DNA of 64,000 nt from Candidatus Aquivivens invisus (GCA_001804415.1 MHGA01000017.1:18390-82389), one strand, 5' to 3'; shown: positions 3,881 through 55,660, numbered from the stretch's first letter. A program made the numbers and translations. The notes: generated by a model not told the origin, from the sequence alone.

Positions 3881-3962
3881 GACACAAGACTCAAGACACA
3901 AGACCCAAGACTATGACTTGAGTCTTGAGTCTCGGGTCTTGAGTCCAACAACTGGGTCTTCC
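3881..3962. repeat. Imperfect inverted repeat built from CAAGACN heptamers (intergenic hairpin between the exonuclease-WYL gene and the MBL gene)
   Basis: gacacaagactcaagacacaagacccaagact-atg-acttgagtcttgagtctcgggtcttgagtc. Confidence 0.6.
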
Positions 3963-4811: not shown

Positions 4812-4907
4812 GGTGACAAGCGACAAGGGACAAGCGACAAGTTCGATGTCACCGCTCACTCATCCGTGTTGACTTGTCGCCTGTCGCTTGTAACTTGTCC
4901 CTGTCAT
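4812..4907. repeat. Heptamer-repeat hairpin (GTGACAAGCGACAAGGGACAAGCGACAAG arm, ~30 nt spacer, complementary TTGTCGC/TTGTAAC/TTGTCCC arm)
   Basis: Direct reading. Lies between the stop of the cpATP-grasp gene and the start of the exonuclease-WYL gene. Confidence 0.65.
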
Positions 4908-6298
4908 GTGAGCATGAGGGCGCTGAGGAGGCCGCCGCCGCGGGAGACATTGACGACGGGGTCTTCCGAGAAGCGGCCGATCAGGCCGACCCCGGTCGAA
5001 TTGACAAAGAAGCCGGAGACCACGCGCCGCTGGACATCACAGACGCTCCCGCCATTGAGCCGGGGGAACCGTTCCGTCGCGATGCGGGCGCGCTCCTGCA
5101 CGACGTACCGGCTGCGCCCCCCGAGGGCTTTGTTGAGCGTGCGCTCCCACACGGATTGCAAGACGCAATCGCCCACGACCACCCCCTGCCCGCCGTAGAG
5201 GGTGTTGGGCTTGAGGACCAGACGATTCTTGTGCCGGCGGATATAGGACGCCAGCGCCACGCGCGCGCCTGACGGGTCGGATGCCTGGGTCTGGCGCACC
5301 AGCCTGGTCCACGGCAGATGGCGGCGGAAGAACCACCGCTGCTGCGTGGTAAAGTACCGGGCGTGGGTGGGATCGGTGAAGATCTCCCAGCAGGACTTCT
5401 GGTCGAATTCCCACAGCAGGCCGGAGATCAACCGGCCCTCCCGAATCGCCTGCCGCAGGGCCGCAAGCCGCCTCCCGTGGCGCTCCATGTCGAGAAATTC
5501 GTTGAGCTCGCAGTCACGATAGAGGAGATCCACCGGTTGGCCGTTCGCCACCAGGCCGCGCCGGCCCACGCGCAGCGCCCGGGGGTCGGCGACGACGGCC
5601 TTCAGGCCCCGCCCGGCGAAATACCTCGCCAGGCTTTCGAACTCGTCGGTGCCGGTCGTGAAATCGGTGTTCTCGATCAACGCGACACCTCGCAGCCGGC
5701 GTCCCAACCGGCGGGAGACGCTGACCAGTTCGTCGAGCAACAGGTCGCGCGGGTCAGGCATCGGCACCACCCGACGGCCGGGAAACGCCCGCTCGAAGGC
5801 ATCGCCCAGCACATCCAATACGATTGAGGCGGCCGCGGGGGCATAATGGATGCCGCCGACCCCGACGGTATTCGGCTCGAGCATCTGAAAGGTCTCGCGC
5901 CACCTCGCGTGGGAAAACGTCGCGTTGGAATCAAGCCGCCCGAGCAGCGCCAGAGGCCGGCTGTGGCGCTGGCCGGCCAGGAGAATCCATGAGGCCTGCG
6001 CCGCCGTCAAGGGCAGGATGCGCCGAATGGCGGGATCGCGGGCGTACAGGGCCGGCAGGCGGGCCAGCGCCTCGACCATCAGGCGCGCGGCGCCATGAAA
6101 GAACTTGACCTGGGCCGGGCTGAGGATCCAGGGCACGAGGGCGAGCTCAATCGTCTGCGGCTTGTTGTGGCCCGCGAGAAACCGAAGCCCCCGCACCGCA
6201 CTCAGTGCCTGAACGGCGTGCAAACGCCTCAGCAGCTCCTGCCGGCCAAGCCGCTTGACCGCTCGATGCAACGGCTCACACGAGAGATAATCAAGCAT
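4904..6298 (-). CDS. Circularly permuted ATP-grasp type 2 family protein (DUF404/DUF407-like amidoligase)
   Basis: LVLKPNTLYGGQGVVVG plus RYVVQERARIA and downstream glycine-rich segments resemble cpATP-grasp-2 proteins. The start is chosen at MLDYL (6296-6298). The ORF-track extension to 6571 crosses a palindromic element and is probably untranslated. Confidence 0.5.
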   Translation of the reverse strand: MLDYLSCEPLHRAVKRLGRQELLRRLHAVQALSAVRGLRFLAGHNKPQTIELALVPWILSPAQVKFFHGAARLMVEALARLPALYARDPAIRRILPLTAAQASWILLAGQRHSRPLALLGRLDSNATFSHARWRETFQMLEPNTVGVGGIHYAPAAASIVLDVLGDAFERAFPGRRVVPMPDPRDLLLDELVSVSRRLGRRLRGVALIENTDFTTGTDEFESLARYFAGRGLKAVVADPRALRVGRRGLVANGQPVDLLYRDCELNEFLDMERHGRRLAALRQAIREGRLISGLLWEFDQKSCWEIFTDPTHARYFTTQQRWFFRRHLPWTRLVRQTQASDPSGARVALASYIRRHKNRLVLKPNTLYGGQGVVVGDCVLQSVWERTLNKALGGRSRYVVQERARIATERFPRLNGGSVCDVQRRVVSGFFVNSTGVGLIGRFSEDPVVNVSRGGGLLSALMLT

Positions 6299-6634: not shown

Positions 6635-8104
6635 ATGACCATGAGCAACGAACGCGTCCCCACCGCCCTCGTCCGGCAGCTCGTCAAGGACCTCAAGCGC
6701 CGCGGCGTCGATTACGCGGACGTGCGCTTCGAGCGCATCCTGCACGAGAGCCTCATCGTAGAGAACGGCCAGGTCAAGCCGATCAGCCTCTTCGAAACCG
6801 CGGGGGTGGGCATCCGCGTGCTCATCCGGGGCTCCTGGGGCTTCGCCTCCACCCCGCATCTGACACCCTCGTTCCTGCGCCGGGCCGCCACGCAGGCGAT
6901 CGACATCGCCAAGAGCTCTTCCTCTATTAATAGGAAGGTGGTCCGGCTCGCTCCGGTTGAGCCGGTCAAAGCGACGTGGCGCTCCTCGTGGCAGATCGAC
7001 CCCTTTGAGGTCCCCTTAAGCAAAAAGCTCGACTACCTCCTGTGGGCGGAGGCGACGGTCCGCGGCCCGAAACCGATCAAGCGGGTCACCGCCCACATGG
7101 ATTTCACCAAATCGACCAAGTGCTTCGCCTCCACCGAAGGGGCGGCGATCGAGCAGCGCGCCATCGAAAGCGGGGCCGGCCTGGAGGTGGTCGCCCAACA
7201 AGGCGAGGAGGTGCAGGTGCGCAGCTACCCCAACTCCCATCACGGGGCGCTGGCGCAAGCCGGCTTTGAGTACGTGAAACAGTTGGACCTCGTCGGAGGC
7301 GCCAAAACCATCCAACGCGAGGTGCTCCAGCTGCTGCGCACTACCCCTCCAAGGGCCGGCCAGACCACGCTGATCCTCGACCCCACGCAGATGGTCATGC
7401 AGCTGCATGAATCGTGCGGGCACCCGACCGAATTGGACCGTGCGCTGGGCCAGGAGCTCAGCTACGCCGGCGGCAGTTTCCTGACGCCGGAGCGCCTGGG
7501 GACGCTGCGCTACGGTTCCCCGCTCATCACGATCGTGGCGGATGCCACGGCGCCGGGCGGGGCCGGCACGTTCGGCTATGATGACGAAGGGGTGCCCGCC
7601 CAACGGACCGAGCTGGTGCGCGAAGGCGTGTTCGTCGGGTATCTCAGCTCGCGCGAATCGGCCGCCCGCTTGGGGTTGCGCCACAGCTCCGGCGCGATGC
7701 GCGCGGACGGGTGGGACGTGCCGCCGCTTGTGCGCATGACGAACGTGAACCTCGAGCCGGGCGAGGCGACCCTCGAGGACTTGCTGCACGATGTGAAACG
7801 CGGCTACCTGCTCTCGACGAATAAGAGCTGGTCGATCGACGATCAGCGGCTCAACTTCCAGTTCACCACGGAAATCGGATGGGAGATCGTCAACGGCAAG
7901 CTCGGGGCGGTGGTGAACAATCCGCTCTACACCGGCATCACCCCTCAGTTCTGGCAGCGCTGCACCGGCTTGTCGGATCGCAACACCTGGCGGCTGTGGG
8001 GGGTGCCGAATTGCGCCAAGGGCGAGCCGGTGCAATTGATGCACGTGGGGCATGGCGCGCCCTATGCCCGCTTTGATGGCGTGACGGTCGCTCCCGCCCG
8101 CTAA
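6635..8104 (+). CDS. tldD: Metalloprotease TldD
   Basis: 489 aa with HESCGHPTELDR and a GxC..GxP C-terminal region typical of the TldD/PmbA (peptidase U62) family. Confidence 0.8.
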   Translation: MTMSNERVPTALVRQLVKDLKRRGVDYADVRFERILHESLIVENGQVKPISLFETAGVGIRVLIRGSWGFASTPHLTPSFLRRAATQAIDIAKSSSSINRKVVRLAPVEPVKATWRSSWQIDPFEVPLSKKLDYLLWAEATVRGPKPIKRVTAHMDFTKSTKCFASTEGAAIEQRAIESGAGLEVVAQQGEEVQVRSYPNSHHGALAQAGFEYVKQLDLVGGAKTIQREVLQLLRTTPPRAGQTTLILDPTQMVMQLHESCGHPTELDRALGQELSYAGGSFLTPERLGTLRYGSPLITIVADATAPGGAGTFGYDDEGVPAQRTELVREGVFVGYLSSRESAARLGLRHSSGAMRADGWDVPPLVRMTNVNLEPGEATLEDLLHDVKRGYLLSTNKSWSIDDQRLNFQFTTEIGWEIVNGKLGAVVNNPLYTGITPQFWQRCTGLSDRNTWRLWGVPNCAKGEPVQLMHVGHGAPYARFDGVTVAPAR

Positions 8105-8110
8105 CGACCA

Positions 8111-8197
8111 TGGGACAAGCGACAAGAGACAAGCGACACGTCATAAGTGACCCATGTATGGCCTTGATACTTGTCGCTTGTCGCTTGTAACTTGTCA
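8111..8197. repeat. Heptamer-repeat hairpin (GGGACAAGCGACAAGAGACAAGCGACA arm / TTGTCGCTTGTCGCTTGTAACTTGTCAC arm) between tldD and pmbA
   Basis: Direct reading. The right arm overlaps the annotated 5' end of the pmbA ORF (MSLVACNLSL). Confidence 0.65.
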
Positions 8198-8203
8198 CTC
8201 GAA

Positions 8204-9550
8204 ATGATTGGTCACGCACGGTTGCTTGAGGAACTGGGAAAGCTGGTTGCGCGCTCGCCGGCCGATGCGACTAGCGTCTGCGCGGATGCCGAGCGGCTGC
8301 GCGTCTCGCGCTTCGCCCACGAGACGATCCATCAGGACCTCGTGCAGGAGAGCTTGAGCGTCACCATCAAGGTGATCGTCAACCGGCGGGTCGGGATCGC
8401 GGTCACCGACACCCTGGAGTACGCCAGCCTGCACCGGGGACTCCGCGCCGCACTCGAGATCGCCCGCCATGCCCCGCCGACCACCCTCCTAGCTCCTCTG
8501 CCAGGCCCCTACCAGCACATCACCCTGCAAGATTACGATCCGGCAACCGCCGAGATGCCCGCGCAGCATTTCGTCAACGTCTTGAAGCGGTTGCTGCAGA
8601 TCTGCCAAGGCGTCGGCGCCACACTCGCCGGCTCCTTCACCGTCTCGGAGGCGGAGCTGGCCGTCGCCAATTCCAACGGGGTGGCCTGTTACGCCGCGTC
8701 CACCGCCGCGGCCGCGAAGCTCGTGACCATGTATCGCAAGCTCTCGGGCTACGCCAGCGGGGTCGAACCGCACATCAACCACCTCGATGTCGAGGCGTTG
8801 TTGGAGCGCGCGCTGAAACTGTGCCTGCATCGACACGATCCCCTCACGCTGCCGACCGGCACCTATGAGGTCATCCTCGAGCCGGAGGCCGTCGCGGAGC
8901 TGGTGACGTGGCTCGGCTACATCGCCTTCGGGGCGAAAAGCTTCCAGGAGCGCACGAGCTGCCTGTCCGGCCGCATGGGCGAGGCGCTGCTCGCCCGGTC
9001 GATCACCATCAGCGACGACGGCAACGATCCGGCAGGGCTGCGTCAGCCGTTCGACTACGAGGGGGTGGCCAAGCAACGCGTCGCCCTCATTGACCGGGGC
9101 GTGGCCACCGGCATCGTCTATGATACGACCTACGGACATCTCTACGGACAGCCTTCCACGGGCCACGCCCAACCGCCTGATCAGCCCGACGGCCCGCTGC
9201 CGTTGCATCTCTTCCTTGAGCCGGGGACCACGCGACGAGAGGAGCTGATCCGCTCCTGCCGACGAGGGTTGCTGATTCCCCGCTTCCATTACGTCAGCGG
9301 CCTGCTGAACACCCGCGAAGCCCTGATGACCGGCCTGACCCGCGAGGGGACGTGGCTCATCGAAGACGGCAAGCTGCGGCACCCGGTGACCACGATGCGA
9401 TTTACCCAAAGCTTCCTGGAGGCCTTTGGGCACGTCCTGGGCGTGTCGAAGGAACGGCGGCTGATCGCCGACCCGGCTCAGGACGCCGGATGCGCCGTGA
9501 TGCCGACGGTGCGCCTGGCCAAGTTCCGCTTCACCGGCCGCTCCGCATGA
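8204..9550 (+). CDS. pmbA: TldD/PmbA-family metalloprotease (PmbA/TldE)
   Basis: Second U62-family paralog immediately after tldD. The start is placed at MIGHARLLEE (8204) rather than the repeat-encoded MSLVACNLSL. Confidence 0.7.
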   Translation: MIGHARLLEELGKLVARSPADATSVCADAERLRVSRFAHETIHQDLVQESLSVTIKVIVNRRVGIAVTDTLEYASLHRGLRAALEIARHAPPTTLLAPLPGPYQHITLQDYDPATAEMPAQHFVNVLKRLLQICQGVGATLAGSFTVSEAELAVANSNGVACYAASTAAAAKLVTMYRKLSGYASGVEPHINHLDVEALLERALKLCLHRHDPLTLPTGTYEVILEPEAVAELVTWLGYIAFGAKSFQERTSCLSGRMGEALLARSITISDDGNDPAGLRQPFDYEGVAKQRVALIDRGVATGIVYDTTYGHLYGQPSTGHAQPPDQPDGPLPLHLFLEPGTTRREELIRSCRRGLLIPRFHYVSGLLNTREALMTGLTREGTWLIEDGKLRHPVTTMRFTQSFLEAFGHVLGVSKERRLIADPAQDAGCAVMPTVRLAKFRFTGRSA

Positions 9551-10752
9551 CGAGCACACAGCAGACAGCACACAGCAGACAGCACAGCGCATTGCTGTGT
9601 GCTGTGTGCTTGGTGCTGTGTGCTGTCTCAGGGTGCGCGGTCCTCGGGACGATCAAGCAGCCGCTGGCGCAGGCGGTGGCGGCTGGAGGGGAACTCCTTG
9701 ACGATGGGTATGCCGACGTGGCGGGCGCCCTCCACATCCACACGACGTACTCCCATGACGCGCATGGGACGTTTGAGGACGTGGTGCGGGCGGCCAACGC
9801 GCAGCAGCTCGACTACGTCATCCTCACGGAGCACAACACCCTCCAGCCGCTTCGCGAGGGCAAGCAGGGCTGGCATGGGGCGGTTCTCGTGCTGATCGGG
9901 ACTGAGCTCTCGACTCGAGGCGGGCATTATCTGGCGTTGAACGTCACTGAGGAGATCGACCGTCATCAGCTCACCACCCAACAGATCATCGATGAGGTCG
10001 CTCGCCAGGGAGGGTTGGGATTCATCGCCCATCCGTATTTCAAGAAGGGGCGCTGGAAGGACTGGACGGTGAGGGGCTTCACCGGCATCGAGGCGTATAA
10101 CGTCGCGCACGACACGTTGGATGAGAACAAGCTCCGCCTGGCGCTGTGGACGCTCACCGCCCCGCCGGAGCCGTTTTACCTCTCGATCATCGACCGGCCG
10201 TACGATCCGCTGCGCGCTTGGGATGAGCTCGTCGCGCGGCACGGCAAGGTGGTGGGGATCGGTGCGACCGACGCGCATGAATTCCACCTGTGGGGCCTGA
10301 AGTTCGCCCCCTATGACATCATGTTCCAGATGGTCCGCACGCACCTCCTGGTGCCCTCGACGCCCCTCACCCCTGACCTGGTCTATGAGGCCCTGCGCCA
10401 GGGACACGCCTATTGGGAACTCGCCCTCGTGGCTGATGCGCAGCGCGGTGTCCGCTTTTTCGCCCACGACGGCCAGCGAGTCCTCGGGGTGATGGGAGAT
10501 GAGATCCGCCTCGAGCCGAACCTGCACCTGACCGCGATCCTCCCACAACCAGCACTCCTGACGCTGTTCAAAGACGGGCAGGCGATCGCGACGGCTTCCG
10601 AGAAAAGCTGGGACGTGGCGGTGAGCGATCCGGGCGCCTATCGCCTCGAGGCGTCGCTCAACGGCAAACCCTGGCTCTTCACCAACCCGATCTACGTCCG
10701 CCCCGCACCCAATGACGAGCCAACAGCACCAAGCACACAGCACACAGAATAA
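9547..10752 (+). CDS. PHP-domain metal-dependent phosphoesterase, predicted lipoprotein
   Basis: HIHTTYSHD PHP motif. The N-terminus MTSTQQTAHSRQHSALLCAVCLVLCAVSGC has a hydrophobic core and an AVSGC lipobox. The ATGA overlap with the pmbA stop is at 9547-9550. Confidence 0.6.
   Translation: MTSTQQTAHSRQHSALLCAVCLVLCAVSGCAVLGTIKQPLAQAVAAGGELLDDGYADVAGALHIHTTYSHDAHGTFEDVVRAANAQQLDYVILTEHNTLQPLREGKQGWHGAVLVLIGTELSTRGGHYLALNVTEEIDRHQLTTQQIIDEVARQGGLGFIAHPYFKKGRWKDWTVRGFTGIEAYNVAHDTLDENKLRLALWTLTAPPEPFYLSIIDRPYDPLRAWDELVARHGKVVGIGATDAHEFHLWGLKFAPYDIMFQMVRTHLLVPSTPLTPDLVYEALRQGHAYWELALVADAQRGVRFFAHDGQRVLGVMGDEIRLEPNLHLTAILPQPALLTLFKDGQAIATASEKSWDVAVSDPGAYRLEASLNGKPWLFTNPIYVRPAPNDEPTAPSTQHTE
9553..9637. 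repeat. Inverted repeat (CACAGCAGA)n / (TGCTGTGTG)n overlapping the 5' coding end of the PHP lipoprotein gene
   Basis: agcacacagcagacagcacacagcagacagcacagcgcattgctgtgtgctgtgtgcttggtgctgtgtgctgtc. Confidence 0.6.
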
Positions 10753-11752
10753 CGGTTGGCGGCCTACCGCTCGATGGCTCCCTCTGTCTGCTGTGTGCTG
10801 TCTGCTGGGTGCTCCAATGGGGTGCGCTCACGTCCCCTTCCGCGCCGCTCGACCGGCCCAGCCGCTCTCCGCTGAGATCGCGGCCTACTACGACTACCCG
10901 GCGCGCCCCCAAGAAGTCACGCGCCAACTCACCAAGGACACGCCGCGGGTCACCGAATGGCTCATGCAGTTTCCGCTCTCCGCCTCAGGATTCGAGCCGA
11001 CCGAGCCGGTTGTGGAGTTCGAGTGGTTCGAGTCGAAGCAACCCGGCCAGCGGCCTGCGATTCTGTTCAACCCGATCCTCGGCGGCGACTACCCGCTTGA
11101 GCACGGCATCTGCCGATACTTCGCCGCGCGCGGATGGCATGTCGCGCTCGTCCACCGCAAGACGCTCAAGGTCTCTCCTGAACATCCGATCGAGCGTTTG
11201 GAGCTGCTGCTCCGGCAGGCCGTGGTGCGCATGCGACAGGTCGTCGACTGGATGGAGGGCGAGGGGCGGGTGGATCCGGAGCGTCTGGGAGGTTTCGGGA
11301 TCAGCATGGGCGGCATGGCCGGCGTGATCGCCGCGGCCCTTGACCCAAGGTTGAAGGCGCATGTGGTGGTCTTGGCCGGCGGTCCCATTGCGACGATCCT
11401 TGCCACCTCCCGCGATCCGCTGCTGGCCAAGCCTCGCCGACGGTACCTCGAGCACAACCAGATGGACCTGGCGACCTTTGAGGGGCGCGTGCGGGACACG
11501 GTGAAGACGGACCCCGTCGCCCTGGCGCCGTACGTCGACCCGTCACGGATGTTCATGGTGATTGCCCTGGCCGACCACACGATCGGCCGAACCAATGCGA
11601 TCCGGCTGTGGGAAGCCGTGGGACGACCCGAGGCGACCTTCATCCCGCTGGGGCACTACACGTCCTACTTGTCCCTCCCCTACCTCAAGCGCGCCAGCCT
11701 CCGATTCTTCCGAAAGACGCTTGGCAGTCCTTCCACCGACGAGCTACAATAG
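10712..11752 (+). CDS. Alpha/beta-hydrolase fold protein (dienelactone-hydrolase-like), putative exported
   Basis: GISMGG nucleophile elbow. The N-terminus MTSQQHQAHSTQ..LSAVCCLLGAPMGC is encoded by a second CA/TG-rich hairpin module. The true start is uncertain. Confidence 0.5.
   Translation: MTSQQHQAHSTQNNGWRPTARWLPLSAVCCLLGAPMGCAHVPFRAARPAQPLSAEIAAYYDYPARPQEVTRQLTKDTPRVTEWLMQFPLSASGFEPTEPVVEFEWFESKQPGQRPAILFNPILGGDYPLEHGICRYFAARGWHVALVHRKTLKVSPEHPIERLELLLRQAVVRMRQVVDWMEGEGRVDPERLGGFGISMGGMAGVIAAALDPRLKAHVVVLAGGPIATILATSRDPLLAKPRRRYLEHNQMDLATFEGRVRDTVKTDPVALAPYVDPSRMFMVIALADHTIGRTNAIRLWEAVGRPEATFIPLGHYTSYLSLPYLKRASLRFFRKTLGSPSTDELQ
10718..10812. repeat. Second CA-rich/TG-rich inverted-repeat module (paralog of 9553-9637)
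   Basis: ccaacagcaccaagcacacagcacacag...ctctgtctgctgtgtgctgtctgctgggtgc. Confidence 0.55.
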
Positions 11753-11759
11753 GACTCCC

Positions 11760-12722
11760 ATGTCGCTTGAGAAAATCATCCTGGCGAAGCCACGCGGGTT
11801 TTGCGCGGGGGTGGAGCGGGCGATTGAGATCGTCGAGCAGGCCCTCCAGCATGTGGAAGGCCCGATCTACGTCCGCAAGGAGATCGTCCACAACCCCCAC
11901 GTGGTCACCGGCCTGCGCGCCAAAGGGGCGGTGTTCGTGGAAGCCCTCGAGGAGGTCCCTCAAGGCCGGTTGGCGATCTTCAGCGCGCATGGGGTCTCCC
12001 CCGCCGTCCATCAGCAAGCCGCACGGCGGACGCTGCGGGTGATCGATGCCACCTGCCCCCTGGTGACCAAGGTGCACGTCGAAGCCAAGCGTTATGCCCG
12101 CGAAGGCTACACGATTCTCCTCGTCGGGCATGAAGGGCACGATGAGGTGATCGGCACGATGGGGGAAGCCCCGGCGTCGATCCGCCTCATTCAAACGACC
12201 CAGGACGCCGAACGCGTCCAGGTCCCCGATTCTCAGAAAGTCGCGGCCATCACCCAGACGACGCTGAGCCTGGACGACACCAGGGCGATCATCGACGTGT
12301 TGACACGGCGATTCCCCACACTGGTGTCCCCCTCAAAAGACGATATCTGTTACGCCACCCAGAACCGGCAGAACGCGGTGAAGGCCATCGCCAAGGAAGC
12401 CGAGGCGATCCTGGTCATCGGGGCCAAGAACAGCTCCAACTCCATCCGCCTCGTCGAGGTCGCGCAGGGCGCAGGACGCCGCGGGCACCTGATCAATCAG
12501 GCGAACGAGATCGACCCGAGGTGGTTTGAGGGCGTGCGATGCGTCGGGGTGACCTCGGGGGCTTCAGCGCCGGAGCATCTCGTGCAGGAGGTGGTCGCCT
12601 CTCTCCAACGGCTCGGGGCCACCCGCGTCGAGGAGTGGGAGCTGGTGAAAGAGGATGTCAACTTCGGCCTGCCCCTTGAACTGACCCAGCTGGAAGCCGG
12701 AAGCAGGAAGGCGGAAGCATGA
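11760..12722 (+). CDS. ispH: 4-hydroxy-3-methylbut-2-enyl diphosphate reductase (IspH/LytB)
   Basis: [49 protein letters not shown] are conserved LytB motifs including the three Cys ligands. An AGGA RBS lies 6 nt upstream. Confidence 0.85.
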
Positions 12723-13132
12723 AGTCGTTCACGGAATATCTCTGGTTTCACACAAAGACGCGACGCGATCTCATCAACATCACCGACACGGTTGAGCAGC
12801 TCGTGAAGACAAGCGGAGTGCAGGAAGGCTTCTGCCTCGTCTCGGCCATGCACATCACGGCGGGCATCTGGGTCAATGATGACGAAGAGGGATTGTGGCA
12901 GGATTTCTGGGAGCTGCTGGAACGGCTCGCACCGTTTCGTGAGGACTACAAGCATCACGCAACCGGCGAAGACAACGGGGACGCCCACCTGAAACGCACC
13001 CTCATCCACCACCAAGCGATGCTCCCGATCACCAAGGGCACGCTCGACCTGGGGCCCTGGGAGCAGGTGTTTTACGCGGAGTGCGACGGCAAGCGCAAGA
13101 AGCGGGTCGTCGTCAAGATCCTGGGGGAATAG
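12719..13132 (+). CDS. yjbQ: YjbQ/UPF0047-family protein (secondary thiamine-phosphate synthase-like)
   Basis: 137 aa, with [21 protein letters not shown] and [14 protein letters not shown], which is typical of UPF0047. There is an ATGA overlap with ispH. Confidence 0.7.
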
Positions 13133-13225
13133 CCTCATCAGTTCGAAGCGAGAAGTTCAAAGTTCGAAGTGACTGGAAACCTCGAACATCCACTTCGAAC
13201 TTCCGGCTTCGAACTTCGAACTAGT
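13133..13225. terminator. Hairpin array of GTTCGAAG/CTTCGAAC repeats between convergent genes (candidate bidirectional terminator)
   Basis: agttcgaagcgagaagttcaaagttcgaagtg ... cacttcgaacttccggcttcgaacttcgaact are near-complementary arms. Confidence 0.4.
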
Positions 13226-14438
13226 CCTCGAAGGTGTCGAGAGCGAACAGCTCCCGAAGATCGAGGCGGTGATAGGTGGTGTAGGCGGCGCGCGTTGGGC
13301 CCTGCGCGTTGGCCACCCAGAGCTCCGGCCAGGCGAAGATGACGCTCTGCACGTTCGAGCTGGGTGCTGCCGCTTTCGCGAGTTCCTTCGCCGCCTCGAC
13401 ATTGATCCGGCCGTAGCGCGATAGAATGCCCGCGGCTTGCCCCAGGTACCTCACCTCGTAGGCTGACCCTGCCGGCGACTCAAGGCCCGGTGCGCGCGGG
13501 TTGCCCCCTGAGGCGAGTTGCCGGTCCCGAATACCAGCATCCACCGCCGTATCCGCCCGGAAGACCGCGTCGGGCAGGGGGCGCGCGTACGCCACACCAT
13601 GCTCTGTGGCATCATCCGCCTCAAAGACCGCGACGTGCGAGCGGGTCGTCTCGACGACGACCGCCCGGTTGGCCTTCGCGTCTGCCACCACGTAGTTCAC
13701 CCCCACCGTCCGAGGCGCCTCGCGAATCAGGCGAACGGCTTCATCGAGGTCGTCCGCTTCTTCGAGGACGCGCCGCATGAGAAACGCCATCGGGATGCCG
13801 GCGTAGGTGGCGTCGACCGTCTCAGCGCCAATCTGCCCGATCGAAATCTGCCGGTCATTCATCCCGGTGAGCGCGCCGATAAATCCGGCCCAGCCGACGT
13901 TGACAAACGCGTGCTTGCCTGCAGGACGCACGACACACACGGTGGCGTAGCGTTGGATGCCGACCTCGATGGTCCAATCGAGGTTGCGCGTGTGGATCAG
14001 CCTGCCGCCTGAGGTCGCGCGCCCCCACACCGCCAACCCGGAGCACGCATAGGTGCGGTCGGGAACCGCGTGGAAGCGCCAGAGATCGCGCAGGCTCACC
14101 CCTGAGGCCGACGCCAGCGCGCGTAATTCTTCGAGATAGTCAGCCGGGACAAAGGGCTTGGCCTGAGCCCATGAACGGTCCAGCCACCAGTTCGCCGCCA
14201 CAGACCGGATGAGGGGCACTTTGAGGTACGCGCGGAAATAGCCCAGCAGCGTGGCGGTGGCGCGGCGCACGTCATCGGTAAGCAGCTCACCATGCTGGCG
14301 TCCAAGTTCCGTTGGCGCGCCCTCCAGGTAGACAATGGGCAGCCCGTCGTGATGTTCGACGCGCGCCGCTTCGGCGGTGACAGGTGACAGGTGACAGGTG
14401 ACAAGTGTGATGATCAGCAACGCGCTTGCACGCTTCAT
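13221..14438 (-). CDS. Peptidase C45 / acyl-CoA:6-APA acyltransferase-like Ntn-hydrolase, secreted
   Basis: TYACSGLAVWG (candidate Cys nucleophile) and RNLDW motifs. The N-terminal signal [25 protein letters not shown] has its hydrophobic core encoded by the (GTGACAG)n repeat. Confidence 0.5.
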   Translation of the reverse strand: MKRASALLIITLVTCHLSPVTAEAARVEHHDGLPIVYLEGAPTELGRQHGELLTDDVRRATATLLGYFRAYLKVPLIRSVAANWWLDRSWAQAKPFVPADYLEELRALASASGVSLRDLWRFHAVPDRTYACSGLAVWGRATSGGRLIHTRNLDWTIEVGIQRYATVCVVRPAGKHAFVNVGWAGFIGALTGMNDRQISIGQIGAETVDATYAGIPMAFLMRRVLEEADDLDEAVRLIREAPRTVGVNYVVADAKANRAVVVETTRSHVAVFEADDATEHGVAYARPLPDAVFRADTAVDAGIRDRQLASGGNPRAPGLESPAGSAYEVRYLGQAAGILSRYGRINVEAAKELAKAAAPSSNVQSVIFAWPELWVANAQGPTRAAYTTYHRLDLRELFALDTFED

Positions 14439-14484
14439 ACGTGGTCTCTTGAGCTTGTCACTTGTCACTTGTCGCTTGTCACGA
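14378..14484. repeat. Heptamer-repeat hairpin: (GTGACAG)x3-GTGACAA arm, ~43 nt spacer, CTTGTCAC-TTGTCAC-TTGTCGC-TTGTCAC arm
   Basis: Direct reading. The left arm lies inside the 5' coding end of the C45 gene. The right arm overlaps the stop of the ceramidase-like gene (..QIVTSDK*). Confidence 0.65.
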
Positions 14485-23688: not shown

Positions 23689-23925
23689 TGGAGCCCCACG
23701 GGCAAGCCCGTGGCCCCCTCCACGACGCCCCGTGTGGGGCGAACATCCCGCCCACCGGTCCGCTGAAGTACAGCCGACGGGGCCCCCGGCCAAGGCCGGG
23801 GCCCGATGGCGGGGTCGAAACGCCGCCAGGCCGCGGGTGACGCGGAGCCAAGGCTCCCGCCGTCCCCACTGCTTCGTTTTGCTTCGTTTTTGCGAAGCAA
23901 AACGAAGCAAAACGGTGGGGAAGGC
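23689..23925. repeat. Cluster of GC-rich palindromes (REP/BIME-like), including copy 2 of the CCCCAC..GCAAAACG..GTGGGG element at 23864-23920
   Basis: gtggagccccacgggcaagcccgtggccccctccac; gccccgtgtggggc; gggcccccggccaaggccggggccc; ccccactgcttcgttttgcttcgtttttgcgaagcaaaacgaagcaaaacggtgggg. Confidence 0.5.
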
Positions 23926-32769: not shown

Positions 32770-33362
32770 CGTGGCGCCGCTGAGGACTGCTTCGCGGCAT
32801 ACCGCTCGTTCAGGAGCTTCAGGACCTCATCGGTGACATCATACGCCTCTTGCCCGTAGACGAGGGAACGCTGATCCAGCATCACCGCGAACCCGTTGGC
32901 TTTCGCATAGTCGGTGATGACTACCTCAATTTCCTCGAGCAACGCTTTGCCGACCAGGTTGCGCTCTCGCACGAGGTCGCGTTGACTGCGGGCTTTCAGC
33001 CGCTGGAATTCATCAGCCTTCTCTTCGACTTCTCTCGCCTTGGCCTCTCGCGCTTGCGCGCTTAACAACTCGAGGCTTTCGCGCATCTTCTTCAACTCCG
33101 TGGCGCGGGTCTCGAGCTCCGCTTGCTTCTTCTGCACTTTCTGTTCCAAGGCCTGCTCGGATGCCTTCGTGCGCTGATACCCCTCCAGCACCGCCCCCAC
33201 ATTGACATAGCCGATCTTCAGCTCCGCCGCCCACGCGGAGCGACAAGGGACAAGCGACAAGGGACAAGCCCAGAGCGAACCAACGAGTATCCCGATGGTC
33301 AAGCCCCTGAGCGATCTTGTCTCCACGCGCCGAACTGATCGAACTGTGTGTTGACGTTTCAT
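32766..33362 (-). CDS. skp: Periplasmic chaperone Skp (OmpH)
   Basis: Signal peptide followed by a K/E/Q-rich coiled coil (KASEQALEQKVQKKQAELETRATELKK). Positioned between bamA and the lpx genes. Confidence 0.65.
   Translation of the reverse strand: MKRQHTVRSVRRVETRSLRGLTIGILVGSLWACPLSLVPCRSAWAAELKIGYVNVGAVLEGYQRTKASEQALEQKVQKKQAELETRATELKKMRESLELLSAQAREAKAREVEEKADEFQRLKARSQRDLVRERNLVGKALLEEIEVVITDYAKANGFAVMLDQRSLVYGQEAYDVTDEVLKLLNERYAAKQSSAAPR
33240..33269. repeat. Heptamer-repeat arm (CGACAAG-GGACAAG x2) inside the Skp signal-peptide coding region
   Basis: On the minus strand it encodes ..ACPLSLVPCRS.. between the hydrophobic core and the AWA cleavage site. Confidence 0.6.
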
Positions 33363-33383
33363 CGCCTTGTCTCCTTTTGGATC

Positions 33384-33413
33384 GCTTGTCGCCTGTCGCT
33401 TGTCGCCTGTCGC
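33384..33413. repeat. Complementary heptamer-repeat arm (GCTTGTCGCCTGTCGCTTGTCGCCTGTCGC) in the skp 5' UTR
   Basis: Reverse complement of the 33240-33269 arm. The two arms bracket the skp start codon. Confidence 0.6.
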
Positions 33414-42478: not shown

Positions 42479-42549
42479 CTGGGGAGCCAGGGCTCGAACC
42501 TGGACGTAGAGCTTCAAAGGCTCTTGTGCTACCGTTACACTACTCCCCA
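42479..42549 (-). tRNA. tRNA-Gln (anticodon UUG)
   Basis: The minus-strand sequence TGGGGAG..CTCCCCA has a 7-bp acceptor stem. The anticodon stem AGAGC/GCTCT has loop CTTTGAA. The T-arm is CCAGG-TTCGAGC-CCTGG. No encoded CCA. Confidence 0.75.
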
Positions 42550-43468: not shown

Positions 43469-43534
43469 GTCAACGGGTTGGCGCGTTAGCCGGTTTGCGG
43501 GTTTGCGCGTTCAACGCGCCAACGCGCGAACGCG
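43469..43534. repeat. Hairpin built from NNAACGCG octamer repeats between ispE and the transketolase genes
   Basis: ttggcgcgttagc...cgcgttcaacgcgccaacgcgcgaacgcgctaacgtttggcg. Confidence 0.5.
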
Positions 43535-44473
43535 CTAACGTTTGGCGTGCAAGACGTCCTTGACCGCGGAAGCGATGTCGTCGGGCATCAAGTGGAAGGC
43601 GCGGAGCAGCTCGGCAGGATCGCCGGAGGTCCCGAAGCGATCGAGGACGCCGACGAAGCGCATCGGCACCGGGTGGTGCCTGACCACGACCTCCGCGACG
43701 GCGCCTCCGAGCCCGCCCAGAACGGTATGCTCTTCCACCGTCACGATCGCACCGGTCTCGCGGGCGGCGGCGATGAGGGCGTCTTCATCGATCGGCTTGA
43801 TCGTGTGGAGGTTGATGACGCGGGATTCGATGCGCTCTCGCGCGAGCCGTGCGGCGGCTTCGAGGGCGTGGGCGACCATCGTCCCGCAGGCGATGATCGC
43901 GACATCCGCGCCGTGTCGCAGGACGTTCGCTTTGCCGATCGTGAAGGCGTCGTCGGGCTTCGTCACCGTCGGCACCGGCGCTCGGCCGAGCCGAAGGAAG
44001 ACCGGGCCGGGGTAGGAGGCCGAGGCGATGGTCGCCTGCTTGGCCTCCATCGCATCGCAGGGGACGATCACGGTCATGTGCGGCAGCACGCGCATGTGGG
44101 ACAGCTCTTCCAGCGCTTCCGCCGTCGCCCCATCCGCGCCGACCGACAGACCCCCGTGCGACCCCGCGGTCTTGACGTTGAGCCGCTGATAGCAGACGGC
44201 CAGACGAAATTGCTCCAGGGCTTTCCCCGTGACGAACTGGCTGAAGGAACACGCAAACGCAATCTTGCCGGCCCAGGCCAGGCCCGCCGCCGTGCCGATC
44301 ATGTCCTGCTCCGCGATGCCGACGGAGAAAAAGCGATCCGGGAATTCTTTCTTGAACCACACGGCTCGCGCGGAATCCTCCAGGTCGCCGGAGAGGGCGA
44401 CGACGTTGGGATTGCTGCGCCCCAGCTCCAACAGCCCCTCGCCGAATCCGTCCCGCGTCGGTTTGTCGCTCAT
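43535..44473 (-). CDS. Transketolase, C-terminal (pyrimidine-binding) subunit
   Basis: GIAEQDMIGTAAGLAWAGK and the C-terminal domain of split two-subunit transketolases. Confidence 0.75.
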   Translation of the reverse strand: MSDKPTRDGFGEGLLELGRSNPNVVALSGDLEDSARAVWFKKEFPDRFFSVGIAEQDMIGTAAGLAWAGKIAFACSFSQFVTGKALEQFRLAVCYQRLNVKTAGSHGGLSVGADGATAEALEELSHMRVLPHMTVIVPCDAMEAKQATIASASYPGPVFLRLGRAPVPTVTKPDDAFTIGKANVLRHGADVAIIACGTMVAHALEAAARLARERIESRVINLHTIKPIDEDALIAAARETGAIVTVEEHTVLGGLGGAVAEVVVRHHPVPMRFVGVLDRFGTSGDPAELLRAFHLMPDDIASAVKDVLHAKR

Positions 44474-55569: not shown

Positions 55570-55660
55570 GTGACAGGTGACAGGTGACAGGTGACAGGTC
55601 AAGACCTTTCATTAGGAACCGTTGTTTGTCGCTTGTCACTTGTCACTTGTCGCTTGTCAC
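55570..55660. repeat. Heptamer-repeat hairpin: (GTGACAG)x4 arm, 25-nt spacer, TTGTCGC-TTGTCAC-TTGTCAC-TTGTCGC-TTGTCAC arm
   Basis: Direct reading. The right arm supplies the C-terminal ..DVTSDK* and the stop of tsaC. Confidence 0.65.

What the first reader, a model, noticed from the sequence alone, without database searches (positions are those of the whole stretch)
9547..10830. Two adjacent exported-protein genes begin with paralogous hairpin modules that encode their signal peptides
Both the PHP-domain gene (9547) and the alpha/beta-hydrolase gene (10712) start with ATGACGAGC. This is followed by a CA-rich arm (CACAGCAGA or CACAGCA units) and its near-complement, a TG-rich arm (TGCTGTGTG). 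The CA-rich arm translates to a polar Q/H/T/S-rich n-region, for example MTSTQQTAHSRQHS. The complementary arm translates to a Cys/Leu/Val hydrophobic core, LLCAVCLVLCAV, ending in GC; AVSGC is a plausible lipobox. The same self-complementary DNA therefore supplies both halves of a lipoprotein signal peptide. At the RNA level it would sequester the start codon in a stem. I have not seen this arrangement described. It suggests signal-peptide exon shuffling by a repeat element, or translational control by 5' structure.
Basis: partly seen in the sequence, partly recalled or inferred. Interest (0 to 1): 0.55.

Follow-up and report, generated by a model that had tools for sequence, protein, structure and literature searches.

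The report
Signal peptides built from heptamer-repeat hairpins
Two neighbouring lipoprotein genes of an uncultivated Omnitrophota bacterium have export signals encoded by a pair of complementary 7-base repeat arrays, a local case of a repeat class common across this lineage and in other metagenomes, for which I found no published description of this use.

Summary
Both genes start with ATGACGAGC, followed by a CA-rich arm and a complementary TG-rich arm. The arms are tandem heptanucleotide arrays.

The arrays are translated. All orthologues keep a lipobox Cys directly after the TG arm. Codons at and after that Cys differ synonymously between species. The PHP start overlaps the upstream pmbA stop (ATGA/GTGA) in nine loci, with or without arrays. 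The proposed refutation (start at MGCAHVPF) fails, because that Cys is the conserved lipidation residue.

The modules are not unique. The window has 20 period-7 arrays, against 0-2 in shuffles. Related genomes carry 3.4 per 10 kb, with 70 different units. Arrays often form inverted pairs at gene junctions, usually A-rich arm first (25 of 30). They are translated where they fall in signal peptides, protein tails or loops, and are untranslated before cytoplasmic genes.

A heptamer array encodes the same 7-residue repeat in every frame. Its complement has opposite hydropathy, so a hairpin reads polar then hydrophobic on either strand.

Corrections: the start codon is not buried, copy number did not vary among six strains, and the hydrolase lipobox is non-canonical. 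The closest precedent is the Neisseria opa CTCTT repeat. The hairpin's own function is unresolved.

The parts
9548..9550 (+). TGA stop of the upstream pmbA/tldD-family gene, overlapping the PHP start as ATGA
   Evidence: The same stop/start overlap occurs at the orthologous junction in L001, L002, L004, L005, L010, L015, L016 and L023.
9547..9549 (+). ATG start codon of the PHP-domain lipoprotein gene (best-supported start)
   Evidence: Conserved coupled ATGA/GTGA start across orthologous loci. It gives a 29-residue leader before Cys30. The exact 401-aa product is seen on 23 contigs. Gene callers also chose TTG 9592, GTG 9604 and 9610.
9551..9586 (+). Module D 5' arm: CA-rich heptamer array (CACACAG/CAGACAG units), translated as the polar n-region TSTQQTAHSRQHS
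   Evidence: No stop codon in any frame.
9587..9592 (+). Module D loop
   Evidence: fold.
9593..9628 (+). Module D 3' arm: TG-rich heptamer array, translated as the h-region LLCAVCLVLCAV
   Evidence: It must be coding because the conserved lipobox follows directly.
9625..9636 (+). Lipobox codons V-S-G-C (Cys30 codon at 9634-9636)
   Evidence: Gly29 and Cys30 are invariant in a 29-sequence alignment. Synonymous codon differences against L001 and L002.
9547..10752 (+). PHP-domain (CehA/McbA-like metallohydrolase) lipoprotein gene
   Evidence: Pfam PF02811; 312 homologues.
10712..10714 (+). ATG start of the alpha/beta-hydrolase lipoprotein gene, 41 nt inside the end of the PHP gene
   Evidence: It is the only in-frame start that gives a leader long enough (37 residues). 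The next in-frame start, GTG 10793, leaves 10 residues. The same ATGACGAGC start occurs in the 80%-identical relative L057.
10716..10749 (+). Module E 5' arm: CA-rich array, read in two frames (PHP C-terminal tail NDEPTAPSTQHTE and hydrolase n-region TSQQHQAHSTQ)
10750..10782 (+). Module E loop. It holds the PHP stop TAA (10750-10752), two Arg codons of the hydrolase leader, and an out-of-frame ATG at 10774
10783..10816 (+). Module E 3' arm: TG-rich array, translated as the h-region LSAVCCLLGA
10823..10825 (+). Cys codon of the hydrolase lipobox (P-M-G-C, non-canonical at position -3)
   Evidence: Cys located at this position in 102 of the 120 listed homologues. Synonymous differences against L057.
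10712..11752 (+). Alpha/beta-hydrolase lipoprotein gene
8114..8199 (+). Same class: GACAAGC/CTTGTCG hairpin between the tldD stop and the pmbA ATG. The 3' arm ends 5 nt before the ATG. Untranslated
   Evidence: z = -5.0. L002 has a hairpin at the same junction with a different unit.
3881..3939 (-). Same class: hairpin ending 2 nt before the ATG of an MBL-fold gene
4813..4902 (-). Same class: GACAAG/CTTGTC hairpin upstream of a WYL/exonuclease gene
14376..14480 (-). Same class: the 5' arm carries the upstream gene's tail and stop, the ATG (MKRAS) lies in the loop, and the 3' arm encodes [10 protein letters not shown] in the signal peptide of a C45/AAT-family protein
   Evidence: Orthologues in 5 species show the same layout with different units.
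33242..33413 (-). Same class: an SD sequence and the ATG lie in the loop, and the 3' arm encodes ACPLSLVPCRS at the end of the OmpH/Skp signal peptide
   Evidence: the OmpH domain starts at residue 49.
55570..55658 (-). Same class: hairpin ending 4 nt before the ATG of an LMW phosphotyrosine phosphatase gene
13140..13225 (.). Same class: GTTCGAA-type hairpin between convergent genes

Best explanation
What it is. Positions 9551-9628 and 10716-10816 are two related copies of an inverted pair of tandem heptanucleotide arrays. This repeat class is abundant in this Omnitrophota lineage. It also occurs in other GC-rich environmental genomes.

Where the copies sit. Each lies inside the signal-peptide coding sequence of a lipoprotein gene. 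It lies between a start codon coupled to the upstream gene (ATGA overlap at 9547; ATG 10712 inside the tail of the PHP gene) and a conserved lipobox Cys. Both are translated.
- The TG-rich 3' arm gives the hydrophobic h-region. This is shown.
- The CA-rich 5' arm gives the polar n-region. This is probable.
- The preprotein would then follow the ordinary Sec, Lgt and LspA lipoprotein route. This is inferred.

Why the arrangement works, from the sequence itself.
(1) Seven is coprime with three. An array of at least three units is read in all three frames and gives the same 7-residue repeat whatever the frame.
(2) Complementary codons swap a middle A for a middle T. The complement of a hydrophilic array is therefore hydrophobic (CACAGCA gives HSTQHTA; TGCTGTG gives CCVLCAV).
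A hairpin with the A-rich arm first thus reads polar then hydrophobic on either strand.

Why it sits here. Signal peptides tolerate such sequence, as do intergenic spacers, protein tails and surface loops. Arrays therefore accumulate there. The leader turns over quickly between species while the lipobox stays fixed.

The two modules. They exchange sequence with each other, by copying or gene conversion.

The hairpin itself. Its role is not established. It may be an RNA element that makes translation of the downstream cistron depend on ribosomes arriving from the upstream one. It may instead be a by-product of how the arrays arise.
For: Coding status.
- The lipobox Cys is present in the homologues examined: located in 109 of 120 PHP and 102 of 120 hydrolase homologues. 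Gly29 and Cys30 are invariant in alignment A1.
- Of the 16 codons spanning the Cys, 7 differ synonymously and 6 non-synonymously between species.
- In the window nothing but the TG arm lies upstream of the lipobox.

Start codon.
- The pmbA C-terminus FTGRS[AE] is conserved.
- The PHP start overlaps its stop in the window and eight other loci, including loci with ordinary leaders.
- Hydrolase starts likewise abut or overlap the PHP stop.

Repeat origin of the leaders.
- Residue identity at period 7 in the pre-Cys region is 0.19 (PHP) and 0.15 (hydrolase). Other periods and mature-region controls give 0.06-0.11.
- DNA of the orthologous loci shows arrays and hairpins with many different units.

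Class membership.
- The window holds 20 period-7 arrays against 0-2 in shuffles. No other period from 4 to 15 is enriched.
- Relatives carry 3.4 arrays per 10 kb against 0.45 in outgroups.
- There are 30 inverted pairs, 25 with the A-rich arm first.
- There are 70 distinct units among 105 arrays.

Other exported proteins with a translated 3' arm.
- C45/AAT orthologues in five species.
- OmpH.
- Unrelated lipoproteins and secreted proteins in other metagenomes with the same CA/TG hairpin.

Hydropathy and frame independence are computed.

Relatedness of the two modules.
- L057's hydrolase 3' arm equals the window's PHP 3' arm, including the odd CTTGGTG unit.
- L010 has the same unit family at both genes.
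- L012 has an unrelated ~85-nt hairpin leader nearly identical at both genes.
Against: - There is no direct evidence for the start codons. Gene callers chose four different starts for PHP and the MGC start for the hydrolase (P0121).
- No signal-peptide predictor was available.
- The PHP leader has no K/R in its first 7 residues (Arg at position 11).
- The hydrolase lipobox has Pro at -3 and Cys at residue 38. It fails the PROSITE-style lipobox rule, which I applied by hand from memory.
- A helix of about -50 kcal/mol begins at +3 of the start codon. It would be expected to hinder initiation unless translation is coupled.
- In some orthologues the 5' arm cannot be translated: an in-frame TAG in L007, and TAA-containing units in L008. 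'Both halves from one hairpin' is therefore not universal.
- Arm mismatches show no excess of G.U compatibility on the sense strand (17 against 21, p = 0.63). This gives no support for selection on the RNA helix.
Confidence: 0.75

Rival explanations
1. Only the TG arm is translated. Translation starts in the loop or 3' arm (TTG 9592 or GTG 9604 for PHP). The CA arm is an untranslated intercistronic element, as it is at the cytoplasmic-gene junctions.
For: - Gene callers chose these starts (P0003-P0005).
- In L007, L008, L019 and probably L002 the start is in the loop.
- In the window's own C45 and OmpH genes the ATG is in the loop.
Against: - These starts leave a 15- or 11-residue leader with no n-region.
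- The ATGA-coupled start is conserved across loci with and without arrays.
- The module D loop is only about 6-8 nt and has no SD sequence.
- For the hydrolase, no in-frame start exists between 10712 and GTG 10793.
Confidence: 0.15
2. The modules are non-coding 5' UTR hairpins, and the true starts lie downstream (for example MGCAHVPF).
For: One gene caller started the hydrolase at MGC (P0121). At cytoplasmic junctions, hairpins of the same class are untranslated.
Against: - The Cys is the conserved lipobox +1 residue in the homologues examined.
- Codons before and after it are under protein-level constraint.
- Orthologues without arrays carry ordinary lipoprotein leaders at the same place.
Confidence: 0.04
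3. The arrays are contingency loci of the opa type. Gain or loss of a 7-nt unit shifts the frame between start codon and mature protein and switches lipoprotein expression on and off.
For: - The SSR unit is not divisible by 3 and lies in the signal-peptide region, as with CTCTT in opa.
- Removing one unit from module E would bring the loop ATG at 10774 into frame (and sequence).
Against: - Both modules are identical in six assemblies at 99.3-99.9% identity (6-26 SNPs each).
- The exact 401-aa product is on 23 contigs.
- The arrays are short (4-5 units) and imperfect.
- The same class sits in essential genes (purL) and before housekeeping genes.
Confidence: 0.07
4. The primary function is at the RNA level. 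The hairpins would be intercistronic elements giving translational coupling, RNase processing or transcript stabilisation. Their coding use in leaders would be a secondary accommodation where genes overlap.
For: - Hairpins recur at the same orthologous junctions while their units change.
- Non-repeat hairpins occupy the same positions in L009, L011, L012 and L013.
- 3' arms end 2-6 nt before ATGs that lack an SD sequence.
- Upstream stop codons lie in or next to the 5' arm.
- Folds are strong.
Against: - The G.U test is neutral, and most arm mismatches are non-wobble.
- Many arrays are single arms or lie inside genes.
- One hairpin lies between convergent genes.
- The polarity bias is strand-symmetric, so transcription direction does not explain it.
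Confidence: 0.3
5. The modules are copies of a small mobile element (MITE-like) that inserts at gene starts.
For: - Module E looks like a flipped copy of D.
- L012 and L009 share an ~85-nt module at different sites.
- The CA/TG hairpin is found at many unrelated loci.
Against: - There are 70 different units among 105 arrays.
- No terminal inverted repeats, target duplications or constant core were seen.
- Copy length and loop vary freely.
- Arrays also occur as single arms.
Confidence: 0.06

Closest known systems
Neisseria opa 'coding repeat' (CTCTT pentamers in the signal-peptide coding region)
   Same: Both are simple sequence repeats whose unit length is not a multiple of three. Both lie between the start codon and the mature protein, are read in all frames, and encode the hydrophobic leader (PMC3960869; bioRxiv 10.1101/2020.09.16.300947).
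   Different: - Here the unit is 7 nt.
- The array is paired with a complementary array that encodes the polar n-region and forms a hairpin.
- Copy number is fixed among six strains.
- The genes are ordinary enzymes in an operon of an environmental bacterium, not a surface-antigen family.
- The same class is mostly intergenic.
Heptameric long simple sequence repeats of bacteria (Xanthomonas/Nostoc GGGAATC arrays, cyanobacterial STRR, Geobacter four-heptamer elements, Beggiatoaceae TAACTGA)
   Same: Period 7 is specifically over-represented. Arrays have about four units, are mostly intergenic and near gene ends, and are occasionally intragenic or in inverted pairs (PMC4692102, PMC2700814, PMC4679880).
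   Different: - Those families have one dominant unit per genome. Here there are 70 units in 105 arrays.
- 60 of 105 arrays are in inverted pairs, with a strong A-rich-first polarity.
- The papers read did not report translation into signal peptides.
Intercistronic stem-loops and REP/BIME-type palindromes of enterobacterial operons
   Same: Both are imperfect palindromes in transcribed spacers between co-directional genes, with no U-tract.
   Different: Here there is no conserved consensus. The arms are built of tandem heptamers, and some copies are translated.
Tandem repeats in Borg elements that create disordered protein regions (PMC9879509)
   Same: Both are nucleotide-level perfect repeats that arise locally, turn over fast, and are translated where tolerated.
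   Different: I did not read the Borg paper, so the contrast is from its title and abstract only: Borg repeats create disordered regions in proteins. Here the 7-nt unit is read in all three frames, and the product is a targeting signal.

Membership tests
Bacterial lipoprotein signal peptide (SPase II type) | Lipobox [LVI][ASTVI][GAS]C with an invariant Cys at +1 | tested here: met
   PHP has V-S-G-C. Gly29 and Cys30 are invariant in 29 aligned homologues. For the hydrolase the Cys is conserved, but the window has P-M-G-C, with position -3 not met.
Bacterial lipoprotein signal peptide (SPase II type) | Hydrophobic h-region of about 7-22 residues directly before the lipobox | tested here: met
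   ALLCAVCLVLCAV (PHP) and WLPLSAVCCLLGA (hydrolase). The three-frame mean Kyte-Doolittle hydropathy of the 3' arms is +2.7 and +2.8.
Bacterial lipoprotein signal peptide (SPase II type) | Positively charged n-region, with Cys within about the first 35 residues | tested here: inconclusive
   PHP has one Arg at residue 11 and none in the first 7, with Cys at 30. The hydrolase has two Arg (17, 21) and Cys at 38. The rule was applied by hand. No SignalP or LipoP was available.
Bacterial lipoprotein signal peptide (SPase II type) | Lipid modification and cleavage by Lgt and LspA | not testable with these tools
   This needs globomycin sensitivity, lipid labelling or N-terminal mass spectrometry.
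Phase-variable coding repeat (opa type) | SSR with a unit not divisible by 3 between the start codon and the mature protein | tested here: met
   Period-7 arrays at 9551-9628 and 10716-10816.
Phase-variable coding repeat (opa type) | Copy-number polymorphism among closely related strains | tested here: not met
   Both modules are identical in L051-L056, which are 99.3-99.9% identical overall.
Heptameric long SSR class | Tandem period-7 arrays over-represented relative to other periods and to shuffles | tested here: met
   20 arrays against 0-2 in shuffles, with at most two arrays at any other period tested.
Heptameric long SSR class | One dominant unit sequence per genome (as in GGGAATC, TAACTGA, STRR) | tested here: not met
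   70 canonical units among 105 arrays. The most frequent unit has 6 arrays.
Rho-independent terminator | GC-rich stem followed by a U-tract | tested here: not met
   No terminator-like site in 8000-13400.
Described RNA families (Rfam 15) | Match at gathering score | tested here: not met
   The only match in the window is a tRNA at 42479-42549.
MITE or other small mobile element | Conserved core with terminal inverted repeats and target-site duplication | tested here: not met
   Units, arm lengths and loops differ between copies. No constant flanks were seen.

The most novel reading that the evidence does not exclude
Inverted pairs of heptanucleotide arrays may act as portable signal-peptide cassettes that work in any frame and either orientation. 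Because the A-rich arm comes first on either strand, a copy dropped or flipped at a gene start would read polar n-region then hydrophobic h-region. Such cassettes would be copied between genes. Three species show paired leaders on this gene pair, and the same CA/TG cassette sits on unrelated lipoproteins in other metagenomes. This would drive rapid turnover, and possibly the birth, of export signals in uncultivated bacteria. The hairpin would at the same time couple translation of neighbouring cistrons.
Probability: 0.25. Interest if true: 0.85.

Novelty: new variant of a known kind. Interest (0 to 1): 0.68.

Why it matters
- It would show a simple route from mutation-prone repeats to working protein-targeting signals. 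The route rests on two properties of the genetic code: a unit length coprime with three, and the hydropathy inversion of complementary codons.
- It would explain why leaders in these lineages diverge completely while lipoboxes stay fixed.
- It has a practical consequence. Gene callers disagree on starts at such sites: four different starts for one gene here, and one call that removes the leader altogether. Secretome and lipoprotein predictions for Omnitrophota and similar metagenome-assembled genomes are therefore likely to be biased.
- Positional conservation of hairpins with complete turnover of their sequence at operon junctions points to an undescribed structural element or generating mechanism that can be tested experimentally.

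Tried and rejected
A 40-residue query then found nothing and used the last search.
- Rfam gave no family for any hairpin.
- The terminator and promoter scan found nothing at the modules.
- No copy-number variation was found among near-identical strains. This argues against an opa-like switch.
- The G.U wobble asymmetry test for sense-strand RNA selection was neutral.
- Literature searches found no description of Omnitrophota repeats or heptamer-encoded signal peptides.
- A long-range RNA helix bracketing the PHP gene (D5' with E3') was considered because the cross-module arms fit best. I set it aside as a general function, because most species have different units at the two junctions.
- The period-7 density in the metagenome hits is not informative, because each of those loci was selected for having two arrays.
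- The taxonomy of the metagenome hits could not be determined with the remaining tools.

Full report
**1. The observation**

The sequence is as described. ATGACGAGC occurs at 9547 and 10712 and nowhere else in the window. A 9-mer occurring twice is not significant on its own: 0.79 matches are expected.

Each start is followed by a CA-rich stretch and, after a loop of about 8 nt (first gene) or about 34 nt (second gene), by its near-complement.
- The 12-mer GCTGTGTGCTGT with up to 1 mismatch matches 7 times, all inside these two modules. The expectation is 0.21, and 0 of 100 shuffles reach 7.
- Tandem Repeats Finder shows that each arm is a tandem array of period 7 with 3.4-4.9 copies. The units are CACACAG and CAGACAG, alternating as a 14-nt super-unit.
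- Both modules fold much better than dinucleotide shuffles: -71.4 kcal/mol, z = -6.2, and -66.1 kcal/mol, z = -4.6.

In that fold only the G of the AUG at 9547 is paired, at the foot of the helix. The claim that the start codon is sequestered therefore needs correcting. The helix begins at +3.

**2. The modules belong to a larger class**

The window (63.7% G+C) contains 20 arrays of period 7, against 0-2 in shuffles. No other period from 4 to 15 is enriched. Most units share a GACA/TGTC core.

Read on the strand of the flanking genes (gene identities from Pfam), the arrays fall into five groups.

| Group | Window sites |
|---|---|
| Hairpin filling an intercistronic spacer, with the 3' arm ending 2-5 nt before an ATG that has no SD sequence | 3881-3939 (MBL-fold gene); 8114-8199 (tldD to pmbA); 55570-55658 (LMW phosphatase). 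The hairpin at 4813-4902 (WYL/exonuclease gene) also fills a spacer, but its 3' arm ends about 30 nt before the start |
| Hairpin whose 3' arm lies inside a signal peptide | The two modules of the finding; 14376-14480 (C45/AAT family, ATG in the loop, [10 protein letters not shown], then AEA\|A); 33242-33413 (OmpH/Skp, SD and ATG in the loop, ...ACPLSLVPCRSAWA\|AELKIGYV, with the Pfam domain starting at residue 49) |
| Single GACAAG-type arm upstream of a start | rplI, purD, glyA, UPF0047 |
| Hairpin between convergent genes | 13140-13225 |
| Array inside the purL reading frame, translated in frame | LSPVTCHLS (61940-61969) and [11 protein letters not shown] (62258-62291) |

**3. Organism and relatives**

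Homologues of both proteins are named Candidatus Omnitrophica or Omnitrophota. Six public assemblies are 99.3-99.9% identical to the window over 3-4 kb.

A genome scan returned 23 orthologous Omnitrophota loci (58-78% protein identity) and 27 outgroup loci.
- Period-7 arrays occur at 3.4 per 10 kb in the relatives and 0.45 per 10 kb in the outgroups. Periods 5, 6, 8 and 9 are near zero.
- Among 105 arrays there are 70 different canonical units. The period is the invariant, not the sequence.
- Sixty of the 105 arrays form 30 inverted pairs. In 25 of these pairs the A-rich arm is 5' and the T-rich arm 3' (binomial p of about 3e-4, my calculation). This property is the same on both strands.

**4. 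Are the arrays translated?**

Yes for the 3' arms, and probably for the 5' arms of these two genes.

- *Conserved lipobox.* PHP homologues carry [AST]-G-C-[AS]-[VL]-L about 20 residues before the DDGY...HIHTTYSHD core. Gly29 and Cys30 are invariant in a 29-sequence alignment. Hydrolase homologues carry [ST]-G-C-A-[HY] at the window's P-M-G-C-A-H.
- *Ordinary leaders exist.* Some homologues have plain lipoprotein leaders, for example MNRRGVLCVSLALVSLAVAGC and MRNRLLLALFLLLTGC. Both families are therefore lipoproteins regardless of repeats.
- *Protein-level constraint.* Of the 16 codons spanning the Cys, 7 differ synonymously and 6 non-synonymously between the window, L001 and L002. The hydrolase comparison with L057 gives 7 and 5. 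Translation is therefore already under way at the Cys codon.
- *No other leader sequence.* In the window only the TG arm lies immediately upstream of the lipobox.

**5. The start codons**

The pmbA C-terminus FTGRS[AE] is conserved. The PHP start overlaps the pmbA stop as ATGA or GTGA in two kinds of locus:
- loci with no 5' arm or no arrays: L001, L004, L015, L023;
- loci with arrays or hairpins in the leader: the window, L002, L005, L010, L016.

The arrays therefore sit between a conserved coupled start and a conserved lipobox.

For the hydrolase, orthologous starts abut or overlap the PHP stop (TAATG, ATGA, TGATG). In the window the only in-frame start that leaves a workable leader is ATG 10712. 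It lies 41 nt inside the PHP gene, so the 5' arm is read in two frames: the PHP tail NDEPTAPSTQHTE and the hydrolase n-region. The 80%-identical relative L057 has the same ATGACGAGC start.

Other layouts also occur.
- The start lies in the loop in L007 (in-frame TAG before the 5' arm), L008, L019 and probably L002.
- L001-L004 have only a TG-type array.

'Both halves from one hairpin' is thus true here and in several relatives, but it is not obligatory.

**6. Repeat-built leaders are common**

- In the region before the Cys, residue identity at period 7 is 0.19 (PHP, n = 109) and 0.15 (hydrolase, n = 102). Other periods and mature-region controls give 0.06-0.11. Forty-one and 22 proteins respectively have five or more period-7 identities.
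- C45/AAT orthologues in five species have a 3' arm in the h-region before an AxA site, each with a different unit.
I examined 80 of these. By my rough estimate fewer than one match would be expected by chance.
  - In about 15 of the 80, the TG arm runs into a lipobox or AxA site of an unrelated protein. Examples are MTSAHSTQHTAHRRVGFVCVLTAVCCLL|SGCGYTTRP and MSSTQHTAHSTQ...CCLLSAVCCLLMPGC, with the ATG directly before the CA arm.
  - In others the arm ends 6-12 nt before the ATG of cytoplasmic proteins whose N-termini read like ribosomal protein L3 and PurA (identified by eye).
  - About half are plainly intergenic.

**7. Why a heptamer hairpin can be a signal peptide**

Three tandem heptamers are read in all three frames. 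They give the same 7-residue repeat whatever the frame. Complementary codons exchange a middle A for a middle T, which inverts hydropathy.

| Unit | Peptide | Mean Kyte-Doolittle |
|---|---|---|
| CACAGCA | HSTQHTA | -1.47 |
| TGCTGTG (its complement) | CCVLCAV | +3.07 |
| GACAAGC | DKRQATS | -2.16 |
| GCTTGTC (its complement) | ACRLSLV | +1.54 |

A pair with the A-rich arm first therefore reads polar then hydrophobic on either strand. This follows directly from the sequence and the genetic code. That it is the reason for the polarity bias is inference.

**8. Relationship of the two modules**

They are related copies, not independent expansions.
- L057's hydrolase 3' arm (CTGTGTGCTGTGTGCTTGGTGCTGTGTGC) equals the window's PHP 3' arm, including the irregular CTTGGTG unit.
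- L010 (62% protein identity) has the same unit family at both genes, and also at its C45 gene.
- L012 has an unrelated, non-heptamer ~85-nt hairpin leader that is nearly identical at its PHP and hydrolase genes. It is shared with L009's PHP gene.

One feature remains unexplained. Arms fit better across modules than within them.

| Species | Across modules | Within modules |
|---|---|---|
| Window | 91% and 85% | 82% and 79% |
| L010 | 100% and 94% | 88% and 88% |

The simplest reading is that module E is a flipped copy of module D. No mechanism is established.

**9. What the hairpin itself does**

*For a function:*
- Hairpins recur at the same junctions in different species while their units change.
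- Non-repeat hairpins occupy the same places in L009 and L011-L013.
- 3' arms abut ATGs that lack an SD sequence, and upstream stop codons lie in or beside the 5' arm.

This geometry is expected for translational coupling.

*Against, or neutral:*
- There is no U-tract and no Rfam match.
- Arm mismatches are G.U-compatible on the sense strand no more often than on the antisense strand (17 against 21, p = 0.63). Sixty-three of 101 mismatches are non-wobble.
- Many arrays are single or intragenic.

I rate an RNA-level coupling or processing role at about 0.3.

*A phase-variation role is unlikely.* Both modules are identical in six assemblies that differ by 6-26 SNPs. The exact 401-residue product is recorded on 23 contigs.

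**10. Comparison with what is known**

- Heptameric SSRs are a recognised over-represented class. Polymerase slippage in a 7-nt register has been proposed as the cause (PMC4679880 introduction).
- Examples are the Xanthomonas and Nostoc GGGAATC arrays, which prefer four units and occasionally form inverted pairs (PMC4692102). Others are the Geobacter four-heptamer elements found between and within genes (PMC2700814) and TAACTGA repeats upstream of start codons (PMC4679880).
- The one clear precedent for an SSR encoding a leader is the CTCTT pentamer of Neisseria opa genes, which acts by frameshift phase variation (PMC3960869; bioRxiv 10.1101/2020.09.16.300947).
- SSRs are generally tolerated at protein termini (PMC3315296).
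- I found no report of paired heptamer arrays encoding both regions of a signal peptide, nor of these repeats in Omnitrophota. The library searched does not cover most subscription journals.

**11. Verdict**

- The core of the interpretation, a self-complementary repeat encoding a lipoprotein leader in paralogous modules, is supported by comparative evidence.
- The ideas of start-codon sequestration and of export conferred by shuffling are not supported.
- The finding is best filed as a new variant of known kinds: heptameric SSRs and SSR-encoded leaders.
- It is of fairly high interest because the phenomenon is widespread, affects annotation, and exposes a code-level route from repeats to targeting signals.

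Noticed in passing
window 61940-61969 and 62258-62291 (- strand): Two heptamer arrays lie inside the purL (FGAM synthase, AIRS domains) reading frame. They are read through in frame as LSPVTCHLS and [11 protein letters not shown], so they are repeat-derived insertions in an essential enzyme.
   Followed up: partly
window 9551-9628 vs 10716-10816; L010 4076-4151 vs 5268-5336: Arms match better across the two modules than within each module, in two species. Module E looks like a flipped copy of module D. No mechanism is established.
   Followed up: partly
L012 1380-1517 and 2561-2698; L009 5914-6051: A non-heptamer ~85-nt hairpin leader (ACAAATGAGGAGGACTGGTCTATTTTTGCC...GGCAAAAATGGACCTGTCCCCGGGACTATCG) is nearly identical at the PHP and hydrolase genes of L012 and at the PHP gene of L009. 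It is a different module copied between the same two junctions.
   Followed up: partly
window 10774-10869 (+): An out-of-frame ATG in the module E loop opens a 31-codon ORF, MAPSVCCVLSAGCSNG..., with a good lipobox. Deleting one 7-nt unit from the 3' arm would put this ATG in frame with the hydrolase.
   Followed up: no
window 43474-43540 and 23866-23918: Hairpins built from tandem arrays of other periods: period 8 (CGGGTTTG / CAACGCGC), and period 10 (TGCTTCGTTT x2 / CGAAGCAAAA x2, flanked by CCCCAC/GTGGGG).
   Followed up: no
window 12688-12717 and about 13195-13215: A purine-rich array (AGCCGGA type) forms the IspH C-terminal tail and sits just before the ATGA-coupled start of the UPF0047 gene. 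Its complement CTTCCGGCTTC occurs in the hairpin after that gene, so the small gene is bracketed.
   Followed up: no
L032 and L034 (Elusimicrobia outgroup loci): These AT-rich genomes (39% G+C) also carry five period-7 arrays each, for example ACTTCCG x4 and TCACTAA x4. The period-7 excess is therefore not confined to Omnitrophota.
   Followed up: no
P0001, P0003, P0004, P0005 (PHP) and P0121 (hydrolase): Different annotation pipelines chose four different starts for the same PHP gene and dropped the hydrolase leader entirely. Repeat-built leaders appear to be a systematic source of start-codon and secretome mis-annotation in these genomes.
   Followed up: partly
L058-L137 (metagenome contigs, several over 300 kb, 0.60-0.71 G+C): The CA/TG hairpin occurs repeatedly on single long soil and rhizosphere contigs, for example three hits on Ga0157375_10000001. 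The organisms were not identified, so the phylogenetic range of the class may be wide.
   Followed up: partly
window 42479-42549 (-): A tRNA gene, the only Rfam match in the window.
   Followed up: no
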